NCBI GenBank assembly: GCA_030390025.1
Contig: CM059432.1
Coordinates: forward strand, 98,458,001 to 98,522,000
Origin: Squalus acanthias
Lineage: Eukaryota
Length of the DNA: 64,000 nucleotides
Reading direction: 5' to 3'
In this document: in pieces, positions 31,827 to 53,600 of the stretch
How positions within the stretch are numbered: position 1 is the first letter of the stretch
Layout of the letters: each line of letters opens with the position of its first letter
Notes under the pieces: model-generated
The model's input: only the letters and a program-made list of their open reading frames with translations
Told to the model about the DNA's origin: nothing
The model's database searches: none
Program-made: the position numbers and the translations under genes

Positions 31827-33883
31827 TAGCATTTTCCCTACTATTGGTGTTCGGCTAACCGGTCTGTAGTTCCCTGTTTTCTCTCTCCCTCCTTTTTTAC
31901 ATAGTGGGGTTACATTTGCCACCCTCCAATCTGCAGGAACTGTTCCATAATCTATAGAATTTTGGAAGATGACAACCAATGCATCCACTATTTCCATGGC
32001 TACCTCTTATAGTACTCTGGGATGCAGATTATCAGGCCCTGGGGATTTATCAGCTTTCAGTCCCATTACTTTCTCCAGCGCTATTTTTTTACTAATACTA
32101 ATTTCCTTTAACTCCTCCTTCTCACTAGACCCTTGGTTCCCTAGCATTTCTGGGAAGTTATTTGTGTCCTCTTCCGTGAAGACAGAACCAAAGTATTTGT
32201 TTAATTACTCTGCCATTTCCTTGTTCCCCATTATAAATTCTCCTGTTTCTGACTGTAAGGGACCTACATTTGTCTTCATTAATCTTTTTCTTTTTACATA
32301 CTTGTAGAAGCTTTTACAATCTGCTTTTATGTTCCTTGCAAGTTTACTCTCATACTCTATTTTTCCCCTCTTAATCAATCTCTTGGTCCTTTTTTGCTGA
32401 ACTCTAAACTGCTCCCAATCCTCAGGCTTGCTACTTTTTCTGACAACTTTATAGGACTCCTCTTTGGATCTAATACTACCCTTAATTTATTTTGTTAGCC
32501 ATGGTTGGGCCACTTTTCCTTTTGTGTTTTTGCACCAGAAAGGAATGTATAACTGTTGCAATTCATGCATTCGTTCCTTAAATGTTAGCCATTGCCTATC
32601 CACCGTCATGCCTTTTAATGAAGCTCCCCAATCTATCATAGCCAACTCACTCCTCATAACTTTGTAGTTTCCTTTGTTTAGATTTAGGACCCTAGTTTCA
32701 GATTGGACTTCTTCACTTTCCATCTTAATGAAGAATTCTACATGTTATGGTCACTCTTCATGGAAACATAGAACATAGAAGATAGGAGCAGGAGTAGGCC
32801 ATTCAGCCCCTTGAGCCTGCTCTGCCATTCAATGCGATCATGGCTGATTATCCAAATTCAGTACCCTGTCCCTGCTTTCTCCCCATATCCCTTGATCCCC
32901 TTAGCCTTAAGAAATATATCTAACTCCTTCTTGAATATATTTAATGAATTGGACGCAACTGTCTTCTGTGGTAGAGAATTCCACAGGTTCACCACTCTCT
33001 GGGTGAAGAAATTCCTCCTCATCTCAGTCCTAAATGGCTTACCCCTTATCTTTAGACTGTGACCCCTGGTTCTGGACTGCCCCACCATCGGGAACATCCT
33101 TCTTGCATCTAGTCTGTCTAGTCCTCTTAGAATTTTATAAGTTTCAATGAGATCCCCTCTCATTCTTCTAAACTCTAGCGAATACAAGCCCAATCGACCC
33201 AATCTCTCTTCATACATCATTCCTGCCATCCCAGGCATCAGTCTGGTGAATCTTCGCTGCACTCCCTCCATGGGAAGAACATCCTTCCTGTAGAATTCGC
33301 AATATATCGCGATTTGATTAATAAGGAGAAAACACAAAGTTTCGTTCAAACAGCTTTTATTTCAGCAGAATGCTGGCAAGTTTAGAGTGGACACAAGCAG
33401 CCTGTAAAATGGCCGCCGCACCTCGTGACAGAACATTCTAGACTTTTCAACAGGCAGACAAGATGGCGTTCCATTAAACATTTGTGCAAGATCGATAACG
33501 ATTCAGCACAGTGAAGATAATACACGAGACATTATGGGTTTGCAGTATAAACATAGATACTGGAATCGGTCTCCCAGGTACAAAGGAAAGCCATTGTACC
33601 GAGTAATCAAGGGCCCATCCAAAAGACATTAATATGTAAAATCCCAACGACTCTACGATGAGAGAGCCGTTAGCAGGTAGTTATACAGGACACTTGGAAG
33701 CCCCAAACCCCTCCAGGGAGAACACCGACCGATTTAACAATGGGAAAATGTTAACAGGTACTCAGACATTTACGAGTAGCCCCGAAACCCATTAAGAACG
33801 GAGATCACCCATACAAGACATTTGGGCGCCAAACCCTAAACAAAAGAATGGACATTATAGTTGGGCGGGAAACGGAAGATTTT

Positions 33884-33894
33884 TGCACTATAAT
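33884..33894 (+). promoter_or_regulatory. Putative LTR TATA box
   Basis: GCACTATAAT. The TATAA core is conserved in the two diverged LTRs (minus strand ~1005-1014 and ~17155-17163). Confidence 0.6.
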
Positions 33895-34537
33895 TGCAGG
33901 CTCCAAACCGTCCATTCTCTCTCTTGCTCTTGCATTCGCTCGCTTGCTCCTGTGCTTTTATCCGGTCGATTCGTAACCTCGTGGCTGCTCCTGTGTACTC
34001 GTAGTTGGGCTTCTGCTTGCCTGTTGCCTCTTCTGAAAAGACTGTTGAACTTTCTGATCCGTTCGGATCTACCTCGTGTCGCGTAACGAAGACCTATGTT
34101 GGTAACTGGCAGCGGAACCAAAGGCCCGAGATGAGATGAGATGAGATGAGATGAGATGAGAAGAGAGGAAGACCATATCCATCGCCACGGTCAGTAAATC
34201 CCGACCGCGCCTGTAGGTCGATTAGCCAAGTTTTCCTCGCCAGGAAGATTTCTCTTTTGAACTTTTAACAAAACATATTGCATCGACGATAACGGGACTG
34301 TGTCCAAGGAGATTGGAACGTGAAAACACATCGTATCGATGATATTGACAACTGTGCTCCAAGAGTACCTGTTAAACCAACCAACACAGGTCTTCATCAC
34401 AGCAGACGGTCCAGCCTGCTAGCCGGAGCAGCAGAAGCAAGTAAACAAGTGGGACCAGGAGATCTCCTGACCGACACGTGGGTGCTGCGGTGAAAAACAT
34501 CCGATCAGCTATTCGGAATTTCTCCGAGTTATCACGA

Positions 34538-34546
34538 GTGGTGAGC
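34538..34546 (+). promoter_or_regulatory. Putative major splice donor inside the LTR R region (GT at 34541)
   Basis: GTG|GTGAGC lies in a 20-nt block identical to minus-strand 354-373. G|GTGAGT is at an equivalent position in the solo LTR. Confidence 0.6.
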
Positions 34547-34753
34547 ATGAGTCTCGAGATCCTACGAAGCTAGTTTAGGATAGATATTGATAGGGGAGGG
34601 TTTAAGGATTAAGGATATTTGTAATGTGTGCCCCTATTTACTTTGTGCCGTTCGTTCCTCGTTTCCCTAAGATCGACTATATAACTGTTTGTAAGATTGT
34701 ACTGTCATTAATCTGTGCTTATGACATGTATTTCATACTTTTAAGTATCATGC

Positions 34754-34759
34754 AATAAA
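34754..34759 (+). promoter_or_regulatory. LTR polyadenylation signal (functional copy expected at 42561-42566)
   Basis: AATAAA(G), conserved in all three LTR types. Confidence 0.7.
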
Positions 34760-35014
34760 GATTTTCCATTTCGTACCATTCAAACCAAGTCTACATGAGT
34801 TTTATCTCCATTACTGCTCTCGCATCTAAGTCCAGTGTCTAGAACCGTAAGGGAGAGTGATTCGAACCACTCACAGGTGTGTCTAGTGTTCCCAGACTGG
34901 CTGGAGACCAGAACAGGCAACCAGGCCTAGACCCGCACTGACATACAGGCTGCACAGAGCCGCGTGAATCTCACAGGCTGCGAGACACGCAGGGTCAGGA
35001 ATCCCTTACAGAAA

Positions 35015-36826
35015 ATGGCGACCGCGGCAGGACACTGGCAGCGAGAGGGTAGTGTGTTAGATTTTGGAATGACTGTACGAAATGTTATGCAGGAAAAGAT
35101 AGCGGATTATGTGTTTGGAAAGGTTAATCTAACTAAGAAGTGGATAAGTGAATTGTTAGCGGATAAGAGCCCACTAGAGGCAGCTGAAAGGTGGACAGAT
35201 AGTAAAGAACATAGAAAGACACTTGAGAAAGCAGTCTGGCTTATGTGCTACAAAAGGCAGGTTCAGATTTCAAACCAGACCATTACAGCGCTAGTAGCTC
35301 GAATCAGTCATTTAGAGGGAGAAATGGAGGAGAAGGTTTCTGGAGGGGAGGTGCTCATTAAGAATTTAAATGAGTTACACCAAGAAAGCCAGGAAGTCTC
35401 CAGCCACCTTAAAACAAGGATAGATTATCTCGAGTGCCAGGTCACTGAGGCAAAATTGAATGAGAGCAGGTTAAAGGAAAGATGTAACCGCCAAGCTGCC
35501 CAGATAAGAACTCAAGAAGAGAGCTTAATGGGGGTTAGGTCGGCATATAAGTTGGCCCTTGAGGATAAGTTTCAGGGAGCCGACCATAGCGCCTGCCAAA
35601 GGGAGATAGAGAACCTCAAAAAGGCCGTGAACAATGCGAACGGCATGGTGTGCCTTATCAATCCGTCGGCGCACCAGCCGCTAGTAAATGAGAGATTTAG
35701 AAAATCCCCACCAAGTAAAGCAGAAGAAGTAGTAGCCACTGCGCCCTCCGCGCCACCCAGCTATTCAGAAACCTGGGTTAGGGAGGAAGCAATGGAAGAC
35801 ACAAAAGAGCCCATTGAAAAGGAAGTAGAAAAGGGATCGTTGTATCCAGTAACGGGTATTAAAAGGGGCCCAAGCAGAAACGGTGGGGAAGAACCGGGGG
35901 ATCTCCTCGGACAGCTGGTGTTGCCTCACAGTTCACATCAGCTGAGAGCTATGATAAATCACGTACGGAAGCTGACCGAGATAGACGACCCTTCCGTACA
36001 TTTCAGAGAAGTTGAGCAAGCCGCAGCCATTAACGGCTGCGATGATGGGGAGACAGCAAAAATGCTGCTGTTCTCATTAGACAGCTCGGTCCTTCAGTGT
36101 CTCTCAGGCGAGAGCAAGAGGGGAAACAAGAGTTATGAGGAATTAAAGAATGAGGTCCTAGAAGTGTTGGGGGCGAACGACGGAGGTCCGTTTGCTAGAG
36201 TGGGACAGACAGTGCAGATGGAGGGAGAACCCCCGAAGGTTTTTGCCGACAGGCTGTGGCCAGTATATGAGCGCAGCTGTCTAGGTGCGCCCGAGCGCGA
36301 AGATGTGGAAGGCGCCGCTTTAACTCATTGGCTTAGGTGCATAATAGCCAACAGTTTACCAGCCGTTAGAGAGCAGGCAAAAGCATGGTTTGATCCCAAT
36401 GACCTCAACCTTACGGAAGAGTCGGTCTTGAATCGACTCACGTTAGGTTATCGCAATATAAGGGGTATGGCGACACGTCCCTTTAAGGGAAGAGTACATG
36501 AGGTACGACCCACAGCCCCGTATCAAAGAGAGTGGCATCAGGAGGGTAATCGCGCCCCACAGGCAAGTAATGCTTGTTACGGGTGTGGGAAGACAGGGCA
36601 CTGGCGCAAGCATTGCAGGAACCCTTGGAAGGATTCCAAGGATAAAAATCCCGCGGTCCGAGCCCAGGCGCCTGTCCCGGCTAAGGAAGCCAAGGCACCC
36701 ACCCCTCCCGACGACCTCGAAGCAGTGTTAGGAGCCATGCGCAAGCTGGTCTTGAATGCGCGTGGACAGGTGGCGGTCGCAACCGGCCCCGTAGGTGCCG
36801 CAGGACCGTCTAATAGTACCCAATGA
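35015..36826 (+). CDS. gag: Gag-like polyprotein (603 aa from first ATG): coiled coil, PSAP/PPxY late domain, capsid-like helical region, CCHC zinc knuckle
   Basis: Intact ORF right after the LTR. CYGCGKTGHWRKHC at 36575-36616 and PSAPPSY at 35744-35764. Confidence 0.9.
   Translation: MATAAGHWQREGSVLDFGMTVRNVMQEKIADYVFGKVNLTKKWISELLADKSPLEAAERWTDSKEHRKTLEKAVWLMCYKRQVQISNQTITALVARISHLEGEMEEKVSGGEVLIKNLNELHQESQEVSSHLKTRIDYLECQVTEAKLNESRLKERCNRQAAQIRTQEESLMGVRSAYKLALEDKFQGADHSACQREIENLKKAVNNANGMVCLINPSAHQPLVNERFRKSPPSKAEEVVATAPSAPPSYSETWVREEAMEDTKEPIEKEVEKGSLYPVTGIKRGPSRNGGEEPGDLLGQLVLPHSSHQLRAMINHVRKLTEIDDPSVHFREVEQAAAINGCDDGETAKMLLFSLDSSVLQCLSGESKRGNKSYEELKNEVLEVLGANDGGPFARVGQTVQMEGEPPKVFADRLWPVYERSCLGAPEREDVEGAALTHWLRCIIANSLPAVREQAKAWFDPNDLNLTEESVLNRLTLGYRNIRGMATRPFKGRVHEVRPTAPYQREWHQEGNRAPQASNACYGCGKTGHWRKHCRNPWKDSKDKNPAVRAQAPVPAKEAKAPTPPDDLEAVLGAMRKLVLNARGQVAVATGPVGAAGPSNSTQ
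35016..35033 (+). promoter_or_regulatory. Primer binding site, tRNA-Arg(TCG)
   Basis: TGGCGACCGCGGCAGGAC, 5 nt after the LTR. It is complementary to the 3' 18 nt of vertebrate tRNA-Arg-TCG (...GTCCTGCCGCGGTCGCCA) as recalled. Confidence 0.85.
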
Positions 36827-37987
36827 CTAGAGCCCACGCAGCCTGCCTACCTGTGTCCTTTTAAAAGACACGCACAGGAGGGGGTCTGCGGTGAGGAGGC
36901 CAGGTTAAAAGAGCAGGCCTTGCGGGAGGAGAACGCCCGCTTAATAGGGAAAATAGATGGGCTGGAAGGGCAGCTTAGAGAGCAGGCCCTGCGGGAGGAG
37001 AACGCCCGATCAATGGGAAAGTTAGACGTGCTCAGGCTAGAAGCGCAGCTTAGAGAGATAAAAGCAGCCTACAGGGTAGCCAAAAGCCGGGAGTATGAGG
37101 ATGCAAACCAGTGCAAACTGTACAAGCCAGGTGCGCAAGGGAAAACTACAGGGGTAAATCCCGCCAATGGGAAAGCACAGCCCCAGGTAGGACCACAAGG
37201 CACACAGGCAGGCATAGCAGCTTGCATCAGGGGAAGGGACATCCCGGACGATCATGCAGCGTTTTTCTGGAATTGGGGGTTAGATGAGGAAGAACCCAGG
37301 GTACCCTGGTCAGATGAGGATAGTGCAGATGAGGATAGTGATGACGACGGGTGGTTTCGGAGGAACGGTCCCGTTTACGATATGGAGGGAATGGGGGCTG
37401 TAGGTAGAGATCCACACAGGGTGGACACACAAGCTGCAGGTCCCGAGGACAGGAGGGAGGAGCTAGAGGAGGCAGGGCCAGCCGCTATAGGAGCACAGAG
37501 AGTACCGGTGTGGCTCCCAGAGATGTGGCCGCCCGCTTTGAACGTCCAGTCCTCAGGGGAGGCAGAGATCACGAGTGAAGGGCCGCCTGCTGGGCCGAGC
37601 AGGGCGGAGCCACGAACTGCCAGCCCCGAGGTTAGGGAGGCGGAGTCAGCGGAGGCGGAGCCGGCGACTGTGATGGAACCCCAGGTCATCCCGTTGGAGG
37701 TCTCGGAACCCGGTCCGTCCGTCACGGAACCCCCGCCCATAGCAACTCCCCGTAGGTCAAGTAGAGAACCCCAGCCCAGGAGGATGTGGTCATGTCCCCA
37801 GACTGCCCCAAGGCGTAGACTTCAGGTTAAGATAACCCGGGTACAGACCGGCCACATCGCAGCAGTAACAGGCTGCGGCAGATCAGAGGGAAGGGTCAGC
37901 GCAGCAACAGGCTGCGGCAGATCAGAGGGAAGGGTCAGTGCCCTCCCACCGTCGGGAAGAGCTCGCAGCAGCCTTCTCAGAATTTAA
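36827..37987 (+). CDS. ORF2, in frame with gag (probable read-through extension; coiled coil, acidic and Pro-rich; function unknown)
   Basis: 386 sense codons open immediately after the gag TGA in the same frame. TGA-CTAG context, no early ATG, no pol motifs. Confidence 0.75.
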   Translation, partial: LEPTQPAYLCPFKRHAQEGVCGEEARLKEQALREENARLIGKIDGLEGQLREQALREENARSMGKLDVLRLEAQLREIKAAYRVAKSREYEDANQCKLYKPGAQGKTTGVNPANGKAQPQVGPQGTQAGIAACIRGRDIPDDHAAFFWNWGLDEEEPRVPWSDEDSADEDSDDDGWFRRNGPVYDMEGMGAVGRDPHRVDTQAAGPEDRREELEEAGPAAIGAQRVPVWLPEMWPPALNVQSSGEAEITSEGPPAGPSRAEPRTASPEVREAESAEAEPATVMEPQVIPLEVSEPGPSVTEPPPIATPRRSSREPQPRRMWSCPQTAPRRRLQVKITRVQTGHIAAVTGCGRSEGRVSAATGCGRSEGRVSALPPSGRARSSLLRI

Positions 37988-38299
37988 AGGGGCCGCCCTG
38001 AGAACGGGCGGCACTGTAAAGTTATAGTTCTAAGTTTTAAGTTTATAGTAACAAGGTTAAGTTTTAAGTTTATAGTTCAAGGTTAAGCTTATAGTTTTAA
38101 TAAGGCTAAGTTTGTAGTTTTTTTAACAGAAAACGATAAAATGATGGGAGCTTTAAAGATAGGTTTAGTTGAAGTTTATTCAGCGAACGTTGAAGTTTAC
38201 GTGAGGCGAGGTCAGGGGACCCGCTCACCCTTCACAAAAGCCAGAGACTCTTGCGAGGCTGGCTACCTCATTCTATCTGATCACAGGAACCAAGGAAGG

Positions 38300-40651
38300 A
38301 TGGAACGAATTCTAGTATTGCTCGTGGCAATCGGATGTGGATTGGCCTATCGAGGCCGCACCAAGGATGTCGTGGTGTTTGGATGTTCCGGGGACACGGC
38401 CCCCATCGCGGTGGATGGGACCGGAAGACGGAAGGCAGAGGGGACCAGCACCTATTTCCACAAGGGAAGGTGGCCAGGATGGCTGGGAACGAACTCAACG
38501 GAGTATTCTAGCACCTCGGGGTTTGCCTACCAAGAGACTTCTTTACTGTGCCCCAAAGTAAGGATCATCGCACCCAGGATCAGCGTCACCGTCGGCAAAC
38601 GGATTTGTTTGACTTGTAGTGGGAATGTCCCATTGAGCCGATGGTGGTGGCTACGAAAGCTGAGCAAAACTATGAGGAACTCCTCGGTCGAGTGGGAACG
38701 ACTGGGTAATAATACCCATCGGACAATTACGGGGACAAACGGACAAGTGAAAGTCTGTTGGGACAAATGGTGGGAACCGGATGAGGGAATTTATGTATGT
38801 ATGTGGGGGTCAAAGTACGTTTGCCCCAAAGGCATCTCCATATTTTTTATTAATCAATGGCAGGATAACGGACAGGGGATGAGGTGGGATGCGAGCACCA
38901 GGGGGTGCGGAGCCCCATTCTCCCCGATCCCAGTAAATGCCACTGAACTCATTACGCGCCCACGCAAAGCCCCGCCCACGATTCCGGTGGTTCTAGCTGA
39001 GGAAGAAGGGTGCCCTAAAACTAGTAAGGGACCCGGGAATGGTTTGGTACTGGTCCCCACAGACCAGATACTATTTCAGGGGGTACATTACGTGGTGGCC
39101 TCGGTGATTTTAAATCTCACTGAGGTGCGGTTACCAGAGTGGTGCCCCAAAAAGACGGAACAGTTGTATCAGGTCCTGTTGACCAAGATGTTCAGACAAT
39201 TTTACGAGTTTGATTTTGCAGAAATCGATAAAACAAGTTTGTACACCGCACCACAGGAAGTTTTGGATCAAGTAGGGAGGCAAAGAAGGGGTTTGGTGAA
39301 CGATGCGTTCACTGCTTTTAACACAGGGACATCTGTGGTCAACGCTCTAGACAGTGTGGAGCTGCAGACCCAGATTAATGGTTTAAAGACACAGTTAAAA
39401 GACATTCTAACAGATGAGAATAAAGTGGTAGGGTCAGGTCTACACGAGGACCAAGCCATGACTCTCCATTTAAAGGAAATTATAGCAGAGCTGGAGAAAC
39501 ATGCAAAGACGGTAAATGCCCTGATCAGGGAAGATCGGAATGCATCCGATCAAGCTGCGCAGAACGAGGTGTGCGTGCTTTACGGGGCGTGGTTACTGGG
39601 CGAGGGCCGCAGTAATTTGGAGGATTTAAAACAAGGTTTGGTTCCGTCCTGGATAAGTAACAAACACCTACGGGCGCTCCACCCTTTTCAGAACGCATTA
39701 AGTCCGTGCCAGCTCAGGCTAGCTTCAGAAGCTTACCCAGTCCCCGTGGACTGCGGACGATCAAACCATACTATTATGGGAATAGTATTACGCATGCCGG
39801 TTTTGGGCGACACAGCAAAGCCCGCCCCGGTGTATCGGGTAGAGAACATTGGTGTCATTCAGGGGGGAGCCCACATTCGTTACGCAGCGGTTCCACCTTA
39901 CGTCATCCGCTGGGAGCAAACGATGACAGGTACAGATCTCTCTGGTTGTCGTGGCAGGGGAGCACACATAATACTGTGCCCCCAGCACTTGAATGCCTTT
40001 TTAACACCACAGTGCGGGTTCAGAACGGCTGGCGCCAAGTCCATGAATTGCACCATGGAGGCAATGGCACAGGATCATGTGCCTCCGCAGGTAGCATACA
40101 TCGGGGGTGGAACATATTGTGTTACCACTGCAGCGCAACACTACCAGCATGGAAACCGTAGCCGGTGTCCGGTGAGTGACAGCAGTTTCTGTTTTAAACC
40201 CAGGGCTGAAGTTCAAGTAGCACAACAGCGAATTATCCCAATCCCTGAACCATCCACTGTTCATCTCACAGTAAAAGAGAATTTCACCGACTTGCAGCGA
40301 TTTGTCGCGCATTTTGGATACCTCATTCCCCCTCTCCCTGAACACTTAACCAAACTTCTGAAAGCCGTCGCGGTATCACAGAAACATTTTTATACATTAG
40401 AGCAGAAAACTGTCGAAATAGGAACAGACATTCTGGACATAGTAGTTCCACCGTGGTGGAATCTGTTCACTAATATTGAAGTGCCTTCATGGATCAGAAT
40501 AGCCTCCCACATTTTAGTCGTATGTCAAGTGTTTATTGTAGTGTACCTATTGGTCATACATTGTAAAAGAGACAAACGCCTCACCAAGCATGAAAACACG
40601 GGAGAGTGGCGAGAACGTTACGTGCGCGTGCACGATGAGAGCACCGTGTAA
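38300..40651 (+). CDS. env: Envelope / class I fusion glycoprotein (783 aa; frame open from 38141) with an N-terminal Ig-like domain
   Basis: Signal peptide MERILVLLVAIGCGLA. Furin site RQRR (39278-39289), then a fusion-peptide-like GLVNDAFTAFNTGTSVVNAL and a heptad repeat. Cys-rich region, C-terminal TM (IASHILVVCQVFIVVYLLVI) and several NxS/T sequons. Splice acceptors at ~38129 and ~38286. Confidence 0.9.
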   Translation: MERILVLLVAIGCGLAYRGRTKDVVVFGCSGDTAPIAVDGTGRRKAEGTSTYFHKGRWPGWLGTNSTEYSSTSGFAYQETSLLCPKVRIIAPRISVTVGKRICLTCSGNVPLSRWWWLRKLSKTMRNSSVEWERLGNNTHRTITGTNGQVKVCWDKWWEPDEGIYVCMWGSKYVCPKGISIFFINQWQDNGQGMRWDASTRGCGAPFSPIPVNATELITRPRKAPPTIPVVLAEEEGCPKTSKGPGNGLVLVPTDQILFQGVHYVVASVILNLTEVRLPEWCPKKTEQLYQVLLTKMFRQFYEFDFAEIDKTSLYTAPQEVLDQVGRQRRGLVNDAFTAFNTGTSVVNALDSVELQTQINGLKTQLKDILTDENKVVGSGLHEDQAMTLHLKEIIAELEKHAKTVNALIREDRNASDQAAQNEVCVLYGAWLLGEGRSNLEDLKQGLVPSWISNKHLRALHPFQNALSPCQLRLASEAYPVPVDCGRSNHTIMGIVLRMPVLGDTAKPAPVYRVENIGVIQGGAHIRYAAVPPYVIRWEQTMTGTDLSGCRGRGAHIILCPQHLNAFLTPQCGFRTAGAKSMNCTMEAMAQDHVPPQVAYIGGGTYCVTTAAQHYQHGNRSRCPVSDSSFCFKPRAEVQVAQQRIIPIPEPSTVHLTVKENFTDLQRFVAHFGYLIPPLPEHLTKLLKAVAVSQKHFYTLEQKTVEIGTDILDIVVPPWWNLFTNIEVPSWIRIASHILVVCQVFIVVYLLVIHCKRDKRLTKHENTGEWRERYVRVHDESTV

Positions 40652-40658
40652 TCAGAAA

Positions 40659-40853
40659 ATGGCGTCACTCCCGCTCGCCGCGTGCACCGCGGAAGTTTGT
40701 ACTCATATAAGATTTTCAGAGATTGTAAATACGTTGGGAACTCGACATGTTTTAAGAGTTGGGGTTTTGATTATTTTGGTGATGGTGTTGATTGTTTGGT
40801 TTTGGGTTTTGTTTTTTCTCCTTTCCCTGAATAAAAGACAAATATACAGGTGA
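40659..40853 (+). CDS. Putative small membrane protein (64 aa)
   Basis: AAAATGG Kozak context 7 nt after the env stop. One long hydrophobic stretch VGVLIILVMVLIVWFWVLFFLLSL followed by NKR. Confidence 0.35.
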   Translation: MASLPLAACTAEVCTHIRFSEIVNTLGTRHVLRVGVLIILVMVLIVWFWVLFFLLSLNKRQIYR

Positions 40854-41083
40854 TACGAGAGGTATCGGCCTGGTTACGCCGGGAAGGAAAACAAGTGGTG
40901 TAAGTTTAAGGGCAAATAATGCCTACGGTGATATAAAATGTAATTTTCTTGGGAAATAAGGACGACACAGAGACCCTAGCTAAGTTAAAAATTATGGGAT
41001 TAATTTACTGGATTCGGAGAGAAATCGAGATAATATTGCTCATCACTGTGATTTTTGATACGATAAGCGGAGTTATTCGCATC

Positions 41084-41095
41084 AACAGGAGGGAC
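41084..41095 (+). promoter_or_regulatory. Polypurine tract (short)
   Basis: AACAGGAGGGAC immediately before the 3' LTR TGT. Confidence 0.65.
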
Positions 41096-42817
41096 TGTAG
41101 AATTCGCAATATATCGCGATTTGATTAATAAGGAGAAAACACAAAGTTTCGTTCAAACAGCTTTTATTTCAGCAGAATGCTGGCAAGTTTAGAGTGGACA
41201 CAAGCAGCCTGTAAAATGGCCGCCGCACCTCGTGACAGAACATTCTAGGCTTTTCAACAGGCAGACAAGATGGCGTTCCATTAAACATTTGTGCAAGATC
41301 GATAACGATTCAGCACAGTGAAGATAATACACGAGACATTATGGGTTTGCAGTATAAACATAGATACTGGAATCGGTCTCCCAGGTACAAAGGAAAGCCA
41401 TTGTACCGAGTAATCAAGGGCCCATCCAAAAGACATTAATATGTAAAATCCCAACGACTCTACGATGAGAGAGCCGTTAGCAGGTAGTTATACAGGACAC
41501 TTGGAAGCCCCAAACCCCTCCAGGGAGAACACCGACCGATTTAACAATGGGAAAATGTTAACAGGTACTCAGACATTTACGAGTAGCCCCGAAACCCATT
41601 AAGAACGGAGATCACCCATACAAGACATTTGGGCGCCAAACCCTAAACAAAAGAATGGACATTATAGTTGGGCGGGAAACGGAAGATTTTTGCACTATAA
41701 TTGCAGGCTCCAAACCGTCCATTCTCTCTCTTGCTCTTGCATTCGCTCGCTTGCTCCTGTGCTTTTATCCGGTCGATTCGTAACCTCGTGGCTGCTCCTG
41801 TGTACTCGTAGTTGGGCTTCTGCTTGCCTGTTGCCTCTTCTGAAAAGACTGTTGAACTTTCTGATCCGTTCGGATCTACCTCGTGTCGCGTAACGAAGAC
41901 CTATGTTGGTAACTGGCAGCGGAACCAAAGGCCCGAGATGAGATGAGATGAGATGAGATGAGATGAGAAGAGAGGAAGACCATATCCATCGCCACGGTCA
42001 GTAAATCCCGACCGCGCCTGTAGGTCGATTAGCCAAGTTTTCCTCGCCAGGAAGATTTCTCTTTTGAACTTTTAACAAAACATATTGCATCGACGATAAC
42101 GGGACTGTGTCCAAGGAGATTGGAACGTGAAAACACATCGTATCGATGATATTGACAACTGTGCTCCAAGAGTACCTGTTAAACCAACCAACACAGGTCT
42201 TCATCACAGCAGACGGTCCAGCCTGCTAGCCGGAGCAGCAGAAGCAAGTAAACAAGTGGGACCAGGAGATCTCCTGACCGACACGTGGGTGCTGCGGTGA
42301 AAAACATCCGATCAGCTATTCGGAATTTCTCCGAGTTATCACGAGTGGTGAGCATGAGTCTCGAGATCCTACGAAGCTAGTTTAGGATAGATATTGATAG
42401 GGGAGGGTTTAAGGATTAAGGATATTTGTAATGTGTGCCCCTATTTACTTTGTGCCGTTCGTTCCTCGTTTCCCTAAGATCGACTATATAACTGTTTGTA
42501 AGATTGTACTGTCATTAATCTGTGCTTATGACATGTATTTCATACTTTTAAGTATCATGCAATAAAGATTTTCCATTTCGTACCATTCAAACCAAGTCTA
42601 CATGAGTTTTATCTCCATTACTGCTCTCGCATCTAAGTCCAGTGTCTAGAACCGTAAGGGAGAGTGATTCGAACCACTCACAGGTGTGTCTAGTGTTCCC
42701 AGACTGGCTGGAGACCAGAACAGGCAACCAGGCCTAGACCCGCACTGACATACAGGCTGCACAGAGCCGCGTGAATCTCACAGGCTGCGAGACACGCAGG
42801 GTCAGGAATCCCTTACA
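41096..42817 (+). repeat. 3' LTR (1722 bp)
   Basis: Same sequence as the 5' LTR at offset 7807. The only difference seen by eye is A33442/G41249. Confidence 0.97.
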
Positions 42818-44311
42818 TTCCTCAGATAAGGCGACCAAAACTGCACACAATACTCAAGGTGTGGTCTCACCAAGGCCCTGTACAACTGCAGCAAGACATC
42901 CTTGCTCCTGTACTCGAATCCTCTCACTATGAAGGCCAACATACCATTTGCCTTCTTAACCGCCTGCTGCACCTGCATGCTTACCTTCAGCGACTGGTGC
43001 ACAAGGTCACCTAGGTCTCGTTGCACTTCCCCTTTTCCCAATCTATTACCGTTCAGATAATAATCTGCCTTCCTGTTTTTGCCACCAAAGTGGATAACCT
43101 CACATTTATCCACATTATACTGCACCTGCCATGCATCTGCCCAACCACCCAACCTGTCCAAATCATACTGGAGTTTCTCTGCATCCTCCTCACAGCACAC
43201 ACGCCCACCCAGCTTTGTGTCGTCTGCAAACTTGGAGATATTACATGTCGTTCCCTCGTCGAGATCATTAATATATATTGTGAATAATTGGAGTCCTAGC
43301 ACCGATCCCAGTGGTACCCCAATACTCACTGCCTGCCACTCGGAAAAAGACCCTAAAGGACCCCGCACAACAAGATTATTAATTGACCCCTTCTCATTGC
43401 ACAATACCCAATCTAGGATAGCCTGTTCTCTAGTTGGCTCCTCAATGTACTGGTCTAAAAAACCATCTCGTACACACTCCAGGAATTCATCCTCCACAGT
43501 ATTATTGCTAATCTTGTTTGGCCAGTCTATATGTAGATTAAAGTCACCCATGATTACTGTAGTACCCTTGTTACATGCATCTCTAATTTTCAGTTTGATG
43601 CCATCCCCTACATCACCACTACTGTTTGGAGGCCTATAGACAACTCCCACGAAAGTTTTCTGCCCCTTGCTGCTTCTTAGCTCCACCCAGACTGATTCTA
43701 CATCTTGATTTTCTGAGCCAATATCCTTTCTCACTATTGCTCTGATTTCATCCTTTACTAACAACGCCACCCCACCTCCTTTTCCTTTTCGCCTGTCCTT
43801 CCTAAATATCAAATATCATTGGATATTCAGCTCCCAGCCTTGTTCACCCTGCAGCCATGTCTCTGTACTCGCAGTTATATCACATCCATTTACACCTATT
43901 TGCGCTGTTAATTGATCTACCTTATTACGAATGCTTCGTGCATTCAGATACAGTGGGGGAAAAATTAAGTCGCGCCCCATTTGGGGCGCAAATATCATCT
44001 GGACGCAAAAATTAGCGCCTGGCGCTAATTATCGCCACTGACTGGAAACTTCACTTTTACCGCCCCGGGAGGTGAGTGGAGCGCTAAATCAGGCGCTGCA
44101 CACCTGTCTTAAGGCGCAAAGGCCGAGCAGTGAGGCGCTAACTCAGCGCGTGAGCGCAGCGCAGGTGCTGCCAGTTAGCGAGGGAACACAGACACACTGG
44201 CTCCGGCCAGTTCTTAAAGGGGGGGGGCAACTTGCTCCCCAGCCACACCCTGCTCATTGCAGCCTTGAATCTCGGCCTGGAGAGACCTGTGAATCCATTT
44301 TGCAGCCAAGG

Positions 44312-46238
44312 ATGGAGAGGGTGAGAGAACGAGCTCAGCGCTTCACCGAGCGGGCCTTCGATGCTCTGGTTGGCACGGTGGAGCGCAGAAGATCGAGACA
44401 CTTCCCTGAGAGTGGCAGGAGGCCTTTGCCACGCGAGTACAGAAGAGTGTGGAGGGAGGTGGCTCAGAGCGTCTCCTCCAGGAGCATGGTGCCCAGGACC
44501 CATGTTCAATGCCGCAAAAAGTTCAACGACCTCACTCGGGTCATCAGGGTGAGTGGCTTTTTCTCAATACCTCTCCATCCCTCCATCTCAACCTCACTCT
44601 ATGGCCAGAGGGTCTTAAAACCCCAATGCACAACACTCATCCAACACCTATGGCCCTTTCATGAAACACACACACACATTCCACACTTTGCATACAGTAA
44701 GGGCTATTCACCTATGGGAGGCACATCAGGCAAGACCATGGCTGTATACAGTAAGGGCTATTCACCTATGGGAGGCACATCAGGCAAGACCATGGCTGTA
44801 TACAGTAAGGGCTATTCACCTATGGGAGGCACATCAGGCAAGACCATGGCTGTATACAGTAAGGGCTATTCACCTATGGGAGGCACATCAGGCAAGACCA
44901 TGGCTGTATATTTACTCAGATGCTGCCCTTTTTCTTGCAGGCCAAGCTGGCGCATAATAGGAGACAGCAGCAACGGACAGGTGGAGGGCGGCCTCAGCTG
45001 CAACCCCTCAGCGATCTTGAGGAGCGCGTCCACAGGATTGTGGCAAGCCGGGTGATCGGTCCTGTCGCCACTGGAGACGCCGACCCCGTTCTGGACAGCA
45101 ATGGTAAGGTCATCACCTTTTGTCCTCTGTCCTTCCACTTGTCCCTCACAACACCAGCCTTTGACACTTTCAATCCAACTTGCTAACTCGCTGCACTTAT
45201 TCCTCCCTTACTGCCACCCTGTCCTCACGCTAAAGCCACTCTTGTACCTCCCTGCTTTCAGATGGTGATTCACCAGCTGAGGAGACGGGCCCTGAAGCTG
45301 CCAGTGGGAGTGAAGCTGCAGCCGAGGAGGAAGAGGAAGCCGGAGCATCAGTGCCACCCTCTCCCGAGGAAGCCCATGCCCACACTGGGAACACGCCTTC
45401 CCTGGAGGGGAGCAGGGGGGAAGGGTCTGATGAGGGTGAAGCTCCAGGACCCAGCGGGCTGCAGCAACGCCATGGGGGTAGGGAAGAACGGGGGCCTTCT
45501 CCTCAGAGGGAGAGTATGCCAGCGACTCCTACTGCAATGGACGCAGAGGAGGAGCGGCTGATCGCAGAAATGAACACCCAGGCGGTGGGCATGCACACTG
45601 AGCTCATGGGTGCAGTGGGAAGGGTGCCCGAATGCATTGAGTCACTGGCAAGGAGTGTGGAGCACTTCGCTGTAGCACAGGCGGATGCCACACTAACGCT
45701 TAGTGCTGCAATTCAGTCACTGACTGCCGTGATCCCATCTCTGACTGCTCTCATGCAGACTCAGATTGAGGCCACGCGAGCACTGACTGCTGCCAACCTC
45801 GATGGTTCGTTCACATGTCCCCGGGGCTCTCACCGCGCCGCAGCAGGCCAGCAATCTGTGCTCCAGCAGATTGCTCCGGATGCTGAAGTGCTGCCCCGTG
45901 GGAGTGCCAGTGTGTCGGGCGAGCAGGGAGTTGCTGTCCTCTCTCACGATGACAGCATTGCTGCTGCCAACACTGTCACTTCTCCACTGCACTTGCCACC
46001 GCCTGTAGGACAGACTGCTGCCGCCCATGCAGAGTTGGTGCAGTCTGCAGCCGGGCCCTCCAGGCCCAGAACTGGTCGAGGCCGTCCTTCAGGGGCATCT
46101 GCAGTGTCAGGGTCTGACAATCAGCAGCCTTCCACCAGCCTTGCTGCAGCCACTGAGGTCCCAATACGGAGGAGCAGTAGGGTTAGAAGGGGGGAAGTGC
46201 GCAAGGGAAGGAGATCACCCTCGAAGGGCAAAAAGTAG
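44312..46238 (+). CDS. Harbinger Myb/SANT-like DNA-binding protein, 3 exons (44312-44548, 44941-45103, 45262-46238), 458 aa
   Basis: RERAQRFTERAFDALV...WREVA...QCRKKFNDLTR. GT-AG introns give a continuous 1377-nt frame. Confidence 0.85.
44693..44908. repeat. 54-bp minisatellite x4 in Myb intron 1
   Basis: Unit TACAGTAAGGGCTATTCACCTATGGGAGGCACATCAGGCAAGACCATGGCTGTA. Confidence 0.95.
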
Positions 46239-46514
46239 GAGGTGTGACAAAATGCTGGTCATTTTTTTATTAAAGGCCGAGGTTCGTGGTCCAACTTTTG
46301 TCTAGTGTTTTGGACATTATCTCCAGGTTGTGAGAACCAGTTATGTTAATGACTGTTTTTTTGTGTTTATTTCTATGAGTTTGTCATGAGGAAATGACAC
46401 ACACAGAGTTTGTAAAATAAATAAGTTTTTGTATTCAAAATATACATGTTTGGTGTTTGGAATCATTGGTGCTTTGGCCGGCTTAGGGGTTGCGTGCTGG
46501 GTTCATTGATGTTG

Positions 46515-47769
46515 TTAGCAATGGCAGAAGCCATTTCCACAGCAGGGGCCATAGAAGCGGCTTGCTATCAGCCGTTGACGGACGGCCCTTGCAGTTTCAC
46601 CATTGTGGGCCGCCCTCCCGCCTTGGTGCTGCTGATGATCATCCTCCTCATCCTCTTCCTCCTCCTCCTCTGGTGGTGCTCCAAGGCCTGGTGGCATTTG
46701 CTGGGTCCTGACGATTGCCATGTTATGCAACATGCAGCACACAACTATGAAGTTGGATACTCGCTCAGGCGAGTACTGCAGGGCTCCTCCAGAATGGTCG
46801 AGACAGCGGAACCGTTGCTTCAGCACGCCGATTGTGCGCTCAATGATGTTCCTGGTAGCTTGATGGCTCTCGTTGTACCGCAGCTCAGCAGGGGTGTTGG
46901 GCGTACGGAGCGGTGTCATCAGCCAGGTGCTCAATGGATACCCCTTGTCCCCGAGAAGCCAACCAACTGGCTGATGCGGTGCCTCGAAAAGTTCTGCCAC
47001 AGTAGTCTGGCGCAGGATGAAAGCATCGTGGCAGCTGCCAGGATAGTGGGCATTGACAGCGAGTATCAGCTGTCTGTGGTCACAGACCAACTGAACATTC
47101 AAGGAATGGAACCCCTTTCTGTTCCGGAAATCCTCGGCATTCTCATGGAGCACGCAAAGCCACATGCGTGCAGTCAATGGCGCCCTGCACCATGGGGAAG
47201 CCCGATATCCTCGCAAAGCCCAGAGCGCGGTCACGCTGCTTGTCTAGGGTCATGGGGAAAGAGATGAACTCTCGTCTCCTTTTAAAGAGGGCATTTGTGA
47301 CCTGCTGGATGCAGCAATGCACCGCGAACTGGGAGATATTGGCGAGGTCCCCAGCAGCAGCTTGAAATGAGCCAGTAGCATAGAAGTTGAGAGCCACTGT
47401 GACCTTCACTGCCACCGACAGAGACGTCCTGGACCTCAGTTGAGGCTGCAGATCTGGCAGCAGCAGGTGGCAGAGCTCAGTGATCACCTCCTTGCTGAAT
47501 CGCAGCCTTCGCAAACACAGCTCCTCAGACATATGAATGTAGGAGAGCTGTTCACGATATACCCTGGGAGGGTAAGCTCTCCTGTACATACGCCTGTTGG
47601 CCCTCCTCCGTCTGGCCATCATTGCCACTCTCTCTCTGCGTCTCTGTGTCCTCCGATTCAGCTGGAGCAGGACGACGCCCCCAATCAGTGCAGCCTCCAT
47701 AGTCTCTTTGCAAGCAAAGTTATGAAGGACAGCAACCAAAGTACCAGCGAAGTTAGGATCAGTAGGCAA
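46515..47769 (-). pseudogene. Harbinger (HARBI1-like) DDE transposase with one frameshift near 47145
   Basis: [15 protein letters not shown] and [18 protein letters not shown] motifs are split over two frames. 2-nt deletion relative to copy 2. Confidence 0.9.
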
Positions 47770-50127
47770 AACTACCTCACAAAGCGTTGACTCAATGCAG
47801 AAGTCTCTCTTTCTCTCTCTCCGAATCTCTCTCTCTCTCTCAGAACGAGTGGTGCAAAAATGTCAACCACAGAAAAAGACAGGAAGAGGCCCCCTTTAAA
47901 TAGCGCCCCCCCCAGCCCCACAGTGATTGATAGCGTTCCAGTTTTCCGGTCGTTGGATGCGCCAGGCGGTAAGGCAGGGGGCACCACTCAATTTCCGCTC
48001 CGGGGCGCCACAAGGGCGTTGCACCATGGAATGACGTCACAATCTGCGCGCGCAGGTGGTCGCAGCGGTAAAGTTTAGCGACGCCGCACAATGTCTAGTT
48101 AAGTTCCCGAGCGGCGCAAACATCGCTGCGCCCGGGTGCTAGCGGCTTTGCGCCCCATTAGCGCCCTCTTAAGGCGCTAACGGGAGGCGCAACCAACTGA
48201 ATTTTTCCCCCAGTGCCTTTAGATTTGTCTTTTTAACATTTTTAGACATCTTAACATTTTTTTGTACTATGGCGCTATTTGTCTTTTTACCATTTATTCT
48301 TACCCGGACCCTATTTGTTGGTGCATTCCTTTGTTTGTACATTCTGTCCCTTCCTGACACAATCTGGTTATCCTTACCCCAATCACTTTCCTGTACTGCT
48401 TCCTTGTCTTTTCTCTTTAGCATTCTAGATTTCTCTCCACCGCGACCCTCCCCCCACACCCTTATTTAGTTTAAAGCCCTATCTACCTCCCTAGTTATTC
48501 GATTCGCTAGAACTCTGGTCCTAGCATGGTTCAGGTGTAGTCCGTCCCAACGGAACAGCTCTCTCTTTCCCCAGTACTGGTGCCAGTGCCCCATGAATCG
48601 AAATCCACTTCTCTCACACCAATCTTTGAGCCACGCATTCATCTCCCTGATCCTATTGACCCTATGCCAATTTGCTCGTGGCTCCGGTAATAATCCAGAG
48701 ATTGTGACCTTTGAAGTTCTGTTTTTTTAATTTAGTCCCAATCTGCTCAAACTCTCTCAGCAGAACCTCCTTCTTTGTACCTCCTATGTCATTGGTACCT
48801 ACGTGAACCACAACAACTGGATTCTCCCCCTCCCACTCCAAGTTCTTCTCCAGCCCGGAGGAGATGCCCTTTACCCTGGCACTGGGTAGGCAACGTAGCC
48901 TTCGGGACTCACGCTCCTGGCTGCAGAGAACAGTATCTATCCCCCTAACTATACTGTGACCTACTACAACCACCTTCCTTTTTACTCCCCCCACTTGAAC
49001 GGCTTCCTGTACCACGGTGCTGTGGTCAGTTTGCTCATCCTCCCCGCAGTCCCCGCACTTGTCCACAAGGGTTGCAAGAACCTCAAATCTATTGGACAAG
49101 TGCAGGGACTGAGGCTCCTGCAATACTACCTCCTGGATCCCCATACCTGCCTCACTTGCAGTCACACCCTCCTGTCCCTGACCACGTGTCAATTCTAAAG
49201 TAATTAATTTAAGAGGTGTGACTGCCTCCTGGAGCAAAAGGTTCAGGTAACTTTCTCCCTCCCTGATGTCTCGCAATGTCTGCAGCTCCTCAACTCGGAG
49301 CCGAAGTTCCTCGAGCCGCAGACACTTACCGCAGGTGTAGTCACCCTGGACAAAAATGTCCACAAGCTCCCACATGTTGTAGTAGCAACACATCTTGTGT
49401 TCTCCCATTATTTTATTTATTTAATTAATTAGTTTAGTGTTAATCAAATTATTTACCTAGTTTAGTTTATTAAATTAATTAAATTAAGTTTAGTTTTTAA
49501 AATTTAGTTATATGCTGTATGTTAACTTAAAACTTAGCCCACAGTCACTACCAATTACTTACCTGCCTTACCTGTGATGTCACACTGCCATTTTCTCTTG
49601 TTATTGCAGGTCTGCTGCTGCTTTTATCCCCGCTCTCGGGCCTCGGTCGGCTCCCGTTCAGGTCCGCCACTGCTCTGTGGGAGAACTTAGGAAAAGCAAG
49701 CACCTCCTTCCCCCACTTCACCAAACTCCCACACTTACCAAACTTCCACTTGTTCACTCTGTGCTCACTGCACTCAGTGCTGGCTGCACTCACAGGCCCC
49801 TGTGTTTATACTTTTGTAACTTAGATGAGTCAACACTGCTCTGCTACTGTTTCAGGAACCAGTTTAATCTAGTTAGCTAATTAACTACAGCAGCTCTTCA
49901 GCAGGAGAGCTTGCTTGTTTGTCTCTGCTTAAGCCTGAAGAAACTTAAAAATTTAAAGTTCAAAATTTTAACTTAAACAGTTGATCTTACTTAAGAGCTA
50001 CTAGCAATTTACACTAGATTTTAAAAGAGATTAACCCTTAAAACTCCCACACTTACCAAACTCCCAGTTGTTCACTCTGTGCTCACTGCACTCAGTGCCT
50101 GTTCCCTTGTTGGTTCTAAGATATATT

Positions 50128-52148: not shown

Positions 52149-53600
52149 TTTGTTCCAGGAGGCAGTCACACACTTTAGGATTAGTAGTACTTTAGAGTTC
52201 ATCAGTGGTCAGGAACAGGAGGGTGTGACTGCGAGTCAGGAAGGTATGGGGACCCAGGATGCAGTGAAGGAGGAGCCTCAGCCCTGGACCTTGTCCAACA
52301 GGTACGAGGTACTTTCTACCTGTATGGATGAGGAAAAGGACTGCATGGAGGATGGGCAAACTTACCACGGCACTGTGGTACAGGGGGCCATCCAAGTGGG
52401 GGGAGAAGGAAGGAATGTGGTAATAGTAGGGGGCAGTATATCAGGGGGATAGATACTGTTCTTTGCAGCCACGAAAGAGAGTCCCAAAGGCTGTGTTGCC
52501 TGCCCGGTGCCAGGGTTAAGGATATCTCCTCGTGGCTGGAGAAGAACTTGGAGTGGGAGGGGGAGGATCCATTTGCTGTGGTCCATGTAGGAACCAATGA
52601 CATAGGTAGAATTAAGAATGAGGTTCAGCTGAGGGAGTTTGAGGAGCAAGGGTCTAAATTAATAAGCAGAACCACAAGGGTAATAATCTCTGGTTTACTA
52701 CCTGAGCCACGTGCAAATTGGCATTGGGTCAAGCAGATCAGAGAGTTAAATGCGTGGCTCAAAGTGTGGTGTGGGAAAATGGGGTTTCAATTCATGGGGC
52801 ATGGGCACCAGTACTGGGGAAAGAGGGAGCTGTTCCATCAGGGCGGGCTCCACTTAATCCGGGCTGGGACAGTGTCCTGGCGAATCGAATAACTAGGGCT
52901 GTAGATAGGCCTTTAAACTAAAAAAAGGGGGTAAGGGGTCAGGTGAGGGGGAATTTAGAAATCTAAAGAGAAAGGTCGAGGCAATAGAGCAGTGTAGAAA
53001 TTTGGGTAAAAATAAGCAGAGTGTGACAGGAAGGGATAGAGAGTTTAATAGTAGCAGTGCAGCAGAGAATAAGGTCAAAGCAGGGAATAATGGTAAAACA
53101 TTTAAATTAAAGGCTCTTTATCTGAATGCATGAAGCATTCGTAACAAGATAAACAAACTAATTGCACAAATAGAGATAAATGTGTTTGATCTAATAGCCA
53201 TTACAGAGACCTGGTTGCAAGGTGGCCAAGGTTGGGAACTAAGGGGTAGAAATTAGGTCGCGCCCCATTTGGGGCACAAATATCGTCCGGACGCAAATAT
53301 TAGCGCCTGGCGCTAATTATCGGCACTGACAGGAAACTTCACTTTTACCGCCCCGGGAGGTGAGTGGAGCGCTAAAGCAGGCGCTGCACACCTGTCTTAA
53401 GGCGCAAAGGCCAAGGAGTGAGGCGCTAACTTAGCGCGCGAGCGCAGCACAGCTGCTGCCAGTTAGCGAGGGAACACAGACACACTGGCGCCGGACACTT
53501 CTTAAAGCGGGGGGGGCCACTTGCTCCCCAGCCACACCCTGCTCATTGCAGCCTTGAATCTCAGCCTGCAGAGACCTGTGAATCCATTTTGCTGCCAAGC

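What the first reader, a model, noticed from the sequence alone, without database searches (positions are those of the whole stretch)
39029..40651. Env core resembles paramyxo/pneumovirus-F or baculovirus-F-type fusogens rather than retroviral SU/TM
Seen: the furin site is followed by a ~450-aa membrane-anchored subunit with a fusion peptide, a long heptad repeat, a large Cys-rich beta-type region (DLSGC...IILCP...QCG...NCT...TYCV...CPV...FCF), a second heptad and a TM. There is no CX6CC or immunosuppressive motif, and it is far longer than a retroviral TM. Established: lokiretroviruses and insect errantiviruses use such F-like envs. The tail has a YxxV motif and ends ESTV, a class I PDZ-binding motif. 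An intact fusogen in the germline could be infectious or co-optable.
Basis: partly seen in the sequence, partly recalled or inferred. Interest (0 to 1): 0.7.

Follow-up and report, generated by a model that had tools for sequence, protein, structure and literature searches.

The report
Paramyxovirus-like envelope in cartilaginous-fish provirus
A very young, enzyme-less endogenous retrovirus, probably of a shark or ray, has an intact envelope protein built like the fusion proteins of measles-type viruses and foamy viruses, and its relatives look like snakehead-retrovirus kin, which hints that this kind of fusion machine is old and widespread among retroviruses.

Summary
The 783-aa Env (38300-40651) has a class Ib F fold: the model's best solved matches are hPIV3, NDV, Nipah and RSV F (Foldseek E 9e-12; Z about 12-13).

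The contrast 'F-like rather than retroviral' is wrong, however. The family profile's only clear PDB sequence hits are foamy-virus Env, and walleye epsilonretrovirus Envs match the model too.

The provirus has 1722-bp LTRs with one mismatch, a 4-bp target duplication, a tRNA-Arg primer site and an intact gag, but no pol, so this copy cannot replicate alone. In whale-shark gene models the same env is joined to pol pieces. Their full-length relative resembles snakehead retrovirus (SnRV) more than lokiretroviruses (indirect, by eye). A weakly supported Ig-like module precedes the core; it is absent or different in some relatives. Fusion activity, expression and co-option are not shown.

The scan already noted this family (F-like Env, Ig module, missing pol, Arg primer) on other pieces of this genome. 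The SnRV link is new to it.

The parts
33285..33288 (+). target-site duplication, left copy (TTCC), inside a CR1-type LINE on the minus strand
   Evidence: the interrupted LINE frame is seen on both flanks; the CR1 label is recalled
33289..35010 (+). 5' LTR, 1722 bp, TGTA...TACA; TATA-like box at 34678, AATAAA at 34754
35016..35033 (+). primer-binding site of tRNA-Arg(UCG) type, 5 nt after the LTR, overlapping the first gag ATG
   Evidence: 13 of 18 loci with the motif are tRNA-Arg genes (10 TCG, 2 CCT, 1 ACG), 1 unassigned tRNA, 4 no tRNA; these are metagenome tRNAs, not host tRNAs
35015..36826 (+). gag, 603 aa: N-terminal helical/coiled-coil region, presumed capsid, one CCHC knuckle; TGA stop followed by CTAG
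   Evidence: skate relative 50% identical over 99%; capsid fold and readthrough are inferred
36827..37987 (+). ORF2, 386 aa, in frame after the gag stop where pol should be; no protease, RT, RNase H or integrase core
   Evidence: weak similarity to the Gag helix of a relative (E 0.15)
38300..38347 (+). Env signal peptide (residues 1-16)
   Evidence: hydropathy; same position in relatives
38348..39010 (+). Env N-terminal module (17-237) with probable Ig-like domain (about 85-170, 38552-38809) and Pro/Thr-rich stalk; candidate receptor-binding part
   Evidence: weak; UniRef name of a relative
39011..39289 (+). F2-equivalent piece (238-330) ending in the furin site RQRR (39278-39289)
   Evidence: C238 kept in 11 of 11 and C282 in 12 of 14 aligned relatives
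39290..40483 (+). F1-equivalent ectodomain: fusion peptide, HRA helices, Cys-rich beta domains, HRB helix
40496..40561 (+). transmembrane anchor
40562..40651 (+). 29-aa cytoplasmic tail with YVRV and terminal ESTV, and stop
40659..40853 (+). small 64-aa ORF with one hydrophobic stretch, candidate accessory gene
   Evidence: not tested further
41084..41094 (+). polypurine tract
41096..42817 (+). 3' LTR, one mismatch to the 5' LTR
42818..42821 (+). target-site duplication, right copy (TTCC)

Best explanation
This is the intact envelope gene of a young, pol-less (helper-dependent) endogenous retrovirus of a cartilaginous fish, most likely from the snakehead-retrovirus-like branch of Retroviridae. 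Its Env is a class Ib fusogen. Supported by model and sequence: an F-type core with an F2-like piece, furin site, HRA, beta domains, HRB and TM. Inferred from F and foamy Env: it trimerises, is cut at RQRR, inserts the peptide after the cut into the target membrane, and zips HRB onto HRA to fuse membranes. Inferred, weakly: the N-terminal Ig-like module stays on the F2-like piece and binds the receptor, replacing the separate attachment protein of paramyxoviruses and the inserted RBD of foamy viruses. Inferred: this copy supplies Gag and Env and borrows enzymes from pol-bearing relatives.
For: Fold: Foldseek PDB top hit hPIV3 F, E 9.3e-12, and all 39 rows shown are paramyxo- or pneumovirus F. 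VIA Z 13.0 (rmsd 13.8, 326 aligned) and 12.1 (rmsd 5.3, 290 aligned). In 48,161 representatives the top 16 rows are F proteins or foamy Env. BFVD adds baculovirus F, insect-virus and fish-filovirus glycoproteins, WEHV1 Env (8.5e-9), WDSV Env and feline foamy Env. Profile-to-PDB: only foamy Env below E 0.01, 2 of 18 hits. Provirus anatomy. No pol. Contigs of other runs bridge gag-ORF2 and ORF2-env, and all 30 bins are covered in 4 of 4 runs. Selection: 7 of 8 env and 10 of 15 gag variants used are synonymous. Lineage: whale-shark gene models join this env to pol pieces (P0026, P0018) or gag pieces (P0040, P0044). The Pol relative P0072 has RT, two RNase H-type domains and integrase, and by my eye matches about 65 of the first 132 RT columns of SnRV against about 48 for a lamprey lokiretrovirus (texts). 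SnRV Gag has a coiled coil, one zinc finger and in-frame gag-pol (PMC2717909 passages).
Against: The model is a monomer with pTM 0.53, low confidence around the fusion peptide, and TM-scores of only about 0.4 with high rmsd. No Pfam F or env family is hit. The Atlas recognition value was below its threshold. The SnRV link is two steps removed (gene-model chimeras of another shark, then an unnamed Pol) and has no tree. SnRV has a 136-aa Env tail against 29 aa here, and SnRV Env was not available to compare. The gag stop is TGA, not amber. The Ig call never passes a significance threshold and its model has pLDDT 33.5. No pol-bearing copy of this family was seen directly.
Confidence: 0.7

Rival explanations
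1. It is a lokiretrovirus (BHIKHARI-like non-autonomous element), the first from cartilaginous fish.
For: Lokiretrovirus Envs are F-like with RXKR (PMC7947760). By eye the printed Loki Envs share the order of motifs with this core. BHIKHARI are pol-less with a coiled-coil Gag of similar size.
Against: The three complete Loki Envs seen begin the core right after the signal peptide and have a more hydrophobic fusion peptide. The X. tropicalis relative of this Env (P0071) differs by eye from Loki-Xtr Env. The linked Pol has the LPQGFH motif printed for SnRV, not the PFGY of Loki RTs. An RT screen found 0 of 6 chondrichthyan genomes positive, including whale shark, where this env family occurs.
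Confidence: 0.1
2. It is a foamy-like ERV whose Env has lost the inserted receptor-binding domain.
For: Foamy Env is the best sequence-profile hit and scores Z 9.2 (rmsd 6.9, 286 of 321 aligned). 4-bp TSD and coiled-coil Gag fit.
Against: Arg rather than Lys/Thr/Asn primer; GGGAC-TG rather than GGGTG at the PPT border; a CCHC knuckle is present (criteria from PMC5210030 section 14). P0072 scores higher against MLV/XMRV-type RT-RNase H than against foamy Pol.
Confidence: 0.08
3. It is a recombinant: an SnRV-like backbone that captured an F-type env recently from another virus or element, so it says little about the ancestral retroviral Env.
For: The top BFVD scores are non-retroviral glycoproteins. 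Env and RBD swaps are common in retroviruses (bioRxiv 2024.03.17.585361, abstract and passages). The N-terminal module itself varies within this family.
Against: The env family is deep and vertebrate-wide (18-30% identity to frog, coelacanth and eel members), and the BFVD scores among F-like proteins are too close to rank donors. This rival is compatible with the fold and mechanism in the best explanation.
Confidence: 0.2
4. The env at this locus is a host-co-opted fusogen or restriction gene.
For: Intact 783-aa ORF; synonymous-biased variation.
Against: The LTRs differ at 1 of 1722 sites (about 1.3 My, range 0.03-7.4, at an assumed shark rate). The family is multi-copy, so the selection signal is explained by viral replication. 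It sits in a complete provirus inside a LINE.
Confidence: 0.03

Closest known systems
Paramyxovirus / pneumovirus F (hPIV3 1ZTM, NDV 3MAW, Nipah 8DMJ, RSV 3RKI)
   Same: F2-furin-F1 layout, nested beta domains, HRA and HRB, one C-terminal TM; best structural scores.
   Different: 6-16% identity; extra ~220-aa N-terminal module; less hydrophobic fusion peptide; encoded by a retrovirus without a separate attachment gene.
Foamy virus Env gp130 (8RM0, 8RM1; PMC11468914, abstract, section 9 and passages read)
   Same: Retroviral class Ib fusogen; only clear sequence-profile hit; Z 9.2 and 8.5.
   Different: Foamy RBD is inserted within SU and Env has two membrane spans; here there is a short signal peptide, a contiguous F2-like piece and an N-terminal module. 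Primer, PPT border and Gag zinc knuckle are not foamy-like.
Snakehead retrovirus and SnRV-like ERVs, including elephant-shark CmiERV lineage I (PMC4422223 part 1 of 2 read; PMC12193657 and PMC2717909 passages)
   Same: Coiled-coil Gag with one zinc finger, in-frame ORF after the gag stop, small ORF after env, SnRV-like RT and RNase H in the linked Pol relative; Arg primer (SnRV's is recalled).
   Different: No pol in this copy; 1.7-kb LTRs; 29-aa Env tail against 136 aa; TGA stop; SnRV Env fold not tested.
Lokiretrovirus Env and BHIKHARI (PMC7947760, parts 1-3 of 4 and supplement passages; bioRxiv 2024.03.25.586437 passages)
   Same: F-like Env after a dibasic site; pol-less, coiled-coil Gag elements exist.
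   Different: Different RT type in the linked Pol; Loki Envs seen lack the N-terminal module; BHIKHARI Bik-1 and Bik-2 lack env; none found in six chondrichthyan genomes.
Baculovirus F and errantivirus F-type Env (bioRxiv 2023.10.26.564294, abstract and part of section 6)
   Same: Same fold family.
   Different: Invertebrate Ty3/gypsy backbones; the linked Pol here has retroviral dual RNase H.

Membership tests
Class Ib (paramyxo/pneumo F-type) fusogen | Nested domain I-III core with HRA and HRB | tested here: met
   (predicted model only)
Class Ib (paramyxo/pneumo F-type) fusogen | Furin site directly before a fusion peptide | tested here: met
   RQRR 327-330; the peptide is only mildly hydrophobic
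Class Ib (paramyxo/pneumo F-type) fusogen | Trimer that fuses membranes | not testable with these tools
   activity needs an experiment; no trimer prediction was run
Gamma-type Env | Short TM subunit with ISD and CX6CC | tested here: not met
   453-aa subunit, no CX6CC, no Pfam hit above cut-off
Lokiretrovirus | F-like Env with RXKR-type site | tested here: met
Lokiretrovirus | RT of the Loki clade | tested here: not met
   indirect: this copy has no RT; the linked relative P0072 is closer by eye to SnRV (about 65 of 132) than to Loki-Pma (about 48 of 132); no tree
Lokiretrovirus | Tether plus RNase H | tested here: met
   P0072 only; shared with Retroviridae, so not discriminating
Spumaretrovirinae / foamy-like ERVs | Lys (or Thr/Asn) primer site | tested here: not met
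   tRNA-Arg
Spumaretrovirinae / foamy-like ERVs | GGGTG at the PPT:LTR border | tested here: not met
Spumaretrovirinae / foamy-like ERVs | Gag without Cys-His box | tested here: not met
   one CCHC knuckle
Spumaretrovirinae / foamy-like ERVs | 4-bp TSD | tested here: met
SnRV-like retroviruses | RT groups with SnRV | tested here: inconclusive
   favoured by an eye comparison of a linked relative; no tree, and no RT in this copy
SnRV-like retroviruses | Gag with coiled coil and one zinc finger; next ORF in frame after the gag stop | tested here: met
   coiled coil judged from sequence and weak Pfam hits; stop is TGA
SnRV-like retroviruses | Arginine tRNA primer | tested here: met
   that SnRV uses tRNA-Arg is recalled and was not seen in any paper read
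SnRV-like retroviruses | Long (136-aa) Env tail as in SnRV itself | tested here: not met
   29 aa; a feature of the virus, not of the clade
SnRV-like retroviruses | Env homologous to SnRV Env | not testable with these tools
   SnRV Env was not returned by any search
Errantivirus / Ty3-gypsy with F-type env | Gypsy-type Pol | tested here: not met
   indirect: P0072 aligns to MLV/XMRV RT through a second RNase H, though its whole-chain top score is Ty3
Immunoglobulin superfamily domain (N-terminal module) | Ig fold with C...W...DxGxYxC pattern | tested here: inconclusive
   pattern present, but best E 0.48, model pLDDT 33.5, Z 4.3 or less

The most novel reading that the evidence does not exclude
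An undescribed vertebrate-wide lineage of SnRV-like retroviruses (sharks, rays, frogs, coelacanth, eel) uses a compact F-type Env with a swappable N-terminal receptor module. Together with foamy, loki and walleye epsilon Envs, this would make the class Ib fusogen the ancestral retroviral envelope, with gamma- and beta-type Envs as later replacements. The pol-less, env-keeping family may still be spreading in cartilaginous-fish germlines through helper-supplied enzymes.
Probability: 0.35. Interest if true: 0.75.

Novelty: new variant of a known kind. Interest (0 to 1): 0.52.

Why it matters
Wang and Han listed four scenarios for where retroviral Env came from and could exclude none (PMC7947760). 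Foamy Env has since been shown to be F-like. An F-type Env on an SnRV-like backbone, plus the walleye-virus matches seen here, would put this fold on several deep branches and let RT and Env trees decide among the scenarios. The Env is also a compact natural example of an F core with a built-in attachment module that varies within one family. For this single locus the importance is modest: it is one young, helper-dependent copy of a family the scan has met many times, with no sign of co-option.

Tried and rejected
Pfam found no F, baculovirus-F or retroviral env family for the Env or among the 25 of 39 families shown for 34 aligned members. The single sequence found only weak Ig hits in PDB.

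No whole genome is held, so copy number and helper copies could not be checked. Viral contigs gave no relative of Env or of P0072. Rfam found nothing in 33000-43000, and ARAGORN found no tRNA in the window.

The N-terminal model was too poor to use. No gamma-type Env and no SnRV Env appear in the 50 BFVD rows shown, which does not exclude them.

No RNA holder is on record; the two 'RNA?' runs are guesses, and no env splice joint was among the 15 of 61 joints shown. Expression is untested. Summed contig depth was not used as copy number. ORF2 has no similarity to Pol P0072, which ends before an integrase tail, so the tail origin claimed by earlier notes was not tested.

Literature searches for a description of this family or of walleye or SnRV Env as F-like gave none. 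The paper on cartilaginous-fish endogenous foamy virus (PMC9972966) is not held, and Calcraft 2024 and Nino Barreat and Katzourakis 2024 were seen only as citations; any of them may already cover part of this. The Loki supplement was read only in passages and is cut at 300 of 318 pages; bioRxiv supplements were closed.

Full report
Observation. The finding lies in an uninterrupted ORF whose signal-peptide start is at 38300, giving a 783-aa protein that stops at 40651. RQRR (327-330) is followed by 453 residues, there is no CX6CC, the TM is at about 733-754, and the 29-aa tail holds YVRV and ends ESTV. Most of the twelve cysteines of the core are well kept in relatives, for example C550 in 23 of 24 and C560 in 22 of 23; C470 is the exception at 12 of 23. 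The fusion peptide is only mildly hydrophobic.

Fold. An AlphaFold2 model of residues 236-728, from a 34-sequence alignment, has mean pLDDT 70.8 and pTM 0.53. Foldseek against PDB gave 245 matches at E up to 0.001; all 39 rows shown are paramyxo- or pneumovirus F, led by hPIV3 F at 9.3e-12. VIA-align gave Z 13.0 (rmsd 13.8, 326 aligned) for hPIV3 and 12.1 (rmsd 5.3, 290) for post-fusion Nipah F. In the wide search of 48,161 chains the top 16 rows are F proteins (14) or foamy Env (2), and unrelated folds start at Z 5.0. BFVD adds insect-virus glycoproteins, a fish filovirus glycoprotein and baculovirus F. The Atlas feature search pointed to Gypsy env, Baculo_F and Fusion_gly, with a recognition value below its threshold. 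High rmsd and TM-scores near 0.4 fit a model caught between conformations, but they mean the ranking among F-like proteins is not reliable.

The contrast with retroviral Env fails. The family profile searched against PDB sequences hit only foamy Env below E 0.01 (8RM1 at 7.5e-4, 8RM0 at 4.5e-3; 2 of 18 hits, no paramyxovirus F among them). Foamy Env shares the F core (PMC11468914, section 9). The model also matches WEHV1 Env (8.5e-9), WDSV Env (3.7e-5) and feline foamy Env (1.6e-4). The real contrast is therefore with gamma- and beta-type Envs.

The element. The env sits in a provirus with LTRs at 33289-35010 and 41096-42817 (1722 bp, one mismatch) and a TTCC target duplication inside a LINE. 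At the shark rate assumed in PMC4422223 that is about 1.3 My (0.03-7.4); at a mammalian rate about 0.13 My. The primer site is of tRNA-Arg type: 13 of 18 metagenome loci with the motif are tRNA-Arg genes, 10 of them TCG. Gag is intact (603 aa, one CCHC knuckle). In place of pol there is a 386-aa ORF with no enzyme domain, and a Pol relative finds no significant match anywhere in the window. This layout is not peculiar to the locus. Twenty of 24 listed runs, from 8 studies and five organism codes, hold at least half of the sampled words. In 4 of 4 runs laid all 30 bins are covered, and single contigs bridge gag-ORF2 and ORF2-env. Of the 40 variant rows shown (of 448), 7 of 8 in env and 10 of 15 in gag are synonymous; I dropped four adjacent gag rows that form one block. 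This suggests purifying selection in the family's recent past, on a small and non-random sample.

Relatives and lineage. The library-wide search gave 51 Env relatives. I looked up sources for 31 of them: 21 are from eight genera of sharks and skates, 5 from frogs, coelacanth and eel, and 5 are unnamed. The nearest (73-75% identity) are from a skate and a sawshark, so the host is probably a cartilaginous fish (inference). Whale-shark gene models join env pieces to pol pieces (P0026, P0018) or to gag pieces related to this Gag (P0040, P0044). The pol pieces are 39-69% identical to an unnamed full Pol, P0072, which has RT, two RNase H-type domains and integrase. Compared by eye with RT texts in the supplement of PMC7947760, P0072 matches SnRV at about 65 of the first 132 columns and a lamprey lokiretrovirus at about 48, and it shares SnRV's LPQGFH motif. 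Coiled-coil Gag, a single zinc finger and an in-frame ORF after gag are described for SnRV (PMC2717909 passages). An SnRV-related lineage is known from elephant shark. SnRV's arginine primer is recalled, not read. The Loki RT screen was negative in 6 of 6 chondrichthyan genomes. Three foamy criteria fail. I put the SnRV-like assignment at about 70%; it is indirect and lacks a tree.

N-terminal module. About 220 residues lie between the signal peptide and the core. Several weak signals agree on an Ig-like domain at about 85-170: Pfam Ig_3 E 0.48, JAM E 0.65, CRTAM E 0.58, Atlas 0.80-0.82, a relative named Ig-like in UniRef, and V-set E 0.045 in another. None is significant, and the model failed. 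The module is 149-188 aa in five relatives, Cys-rich and apparently different in Mustelus, and absent in the eel, coelacanth and one unnamed relative, which have only about 20 residues before the core. A swappable front part suits a receptor-binding role; this is inference.

Tail. YVRV is kept in the skate relative but the PDZ-type end is not. Four of 16 relatives with tails (two of the 16 are one cluster) end in S/T-x-hydrophobic against about 3% expected by chance, uncorrected for kinship. This is a hint only.

How it probably works. Predicted from sequence and model: an F-type core with a cleavage site, two heptad regions and an anchor. Inferred from F and foamy Env: trimer, furin cleavage, receptor-triggered refolding and fusion. 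Inferred: the F2-like piece carries the attachment module. Inferred: the provirus makes Gag and Env and depends on pol-bearing relatives for copying. Not shown: expression, cleavage, fusion, infectivity or host benefit.

Prior notes and novelty. I reached the F fold, Ig module, missing pol and foamy hit before looking, and the Arg primer. The scan has noted the same family on other pieces of this genome, mostly filed near lokiretroviruses. Their claims of over a thousand copies and of helper relatives were not tested here. The words snakehead and SnRV occur in no earlier finding. Searches found no paper describing this family or calling walleye or SnRV Env F-like, but three relevant papers could not be read.

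Verdict. The feature is real and the fold call is right. The fusogen class is known; the combination of backbone, host and front module is a new variant. Interest 0.52.

Noticed in passing
BFVD rows 20 and 39: Walleye epidermal hyperplasia virus 1 and walleye dermal sarcoma virus Env models match the F-like core (E 8.5e-9 and 3.7e-5), suggesting epsilonretrovirus Env is class Ib too; not found in print.
   Followed up: partly
window 35011-35033: The primer site lies 5 nt from the LTR and overlaps the first gag ATG; a methionine 24 codons later is conserved in both Gag relatives and may be the true start.
   Followed up: partly
window 36821-36830: The gag stop is TGA followed by CTAG, a context I recall as favouring readthrough; ORF2 follows in frame.
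   Followed up: no
window 36897-37057: ORF2 holds an internal duplication of a helical stretch and weak similarity to the Gag helix of a relative.
   Followed up: partly
window 38606-38617: A CxxC (CLTC) sits in the N-terminal module and is kept in the close relatives, although there is no CX6CC partner in the TM subunit.
   Followed up: no
window 40659-40853: A 64-aa ORF with a strong hydrophobic stretch starts 7 nt after the env stop, in the same sequence context as the gag ATG.
   Followed up: no
window 38265-38299: A possible splice acceptor lies about 12 nt before the env ATG; contigs of two other runs show 24- and 28-letter gaps in the ORF2-env spacer.
   Followed up: no
window 43955-48211 and 53243-57446: Two related copies of a two-gene DNA transposon that looks PIF/Harbinger-like (label recalled), with further fragments near 5500-8300 and 60600-62900.
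   Followed up: no
proteins P0049, P0055-P0068: The frog Mantella aurantiaca carries a cluster of 16 near-identical envs of this family, most of them 677 aa, on several contigs: a second recent expansion.
   Followed up: no
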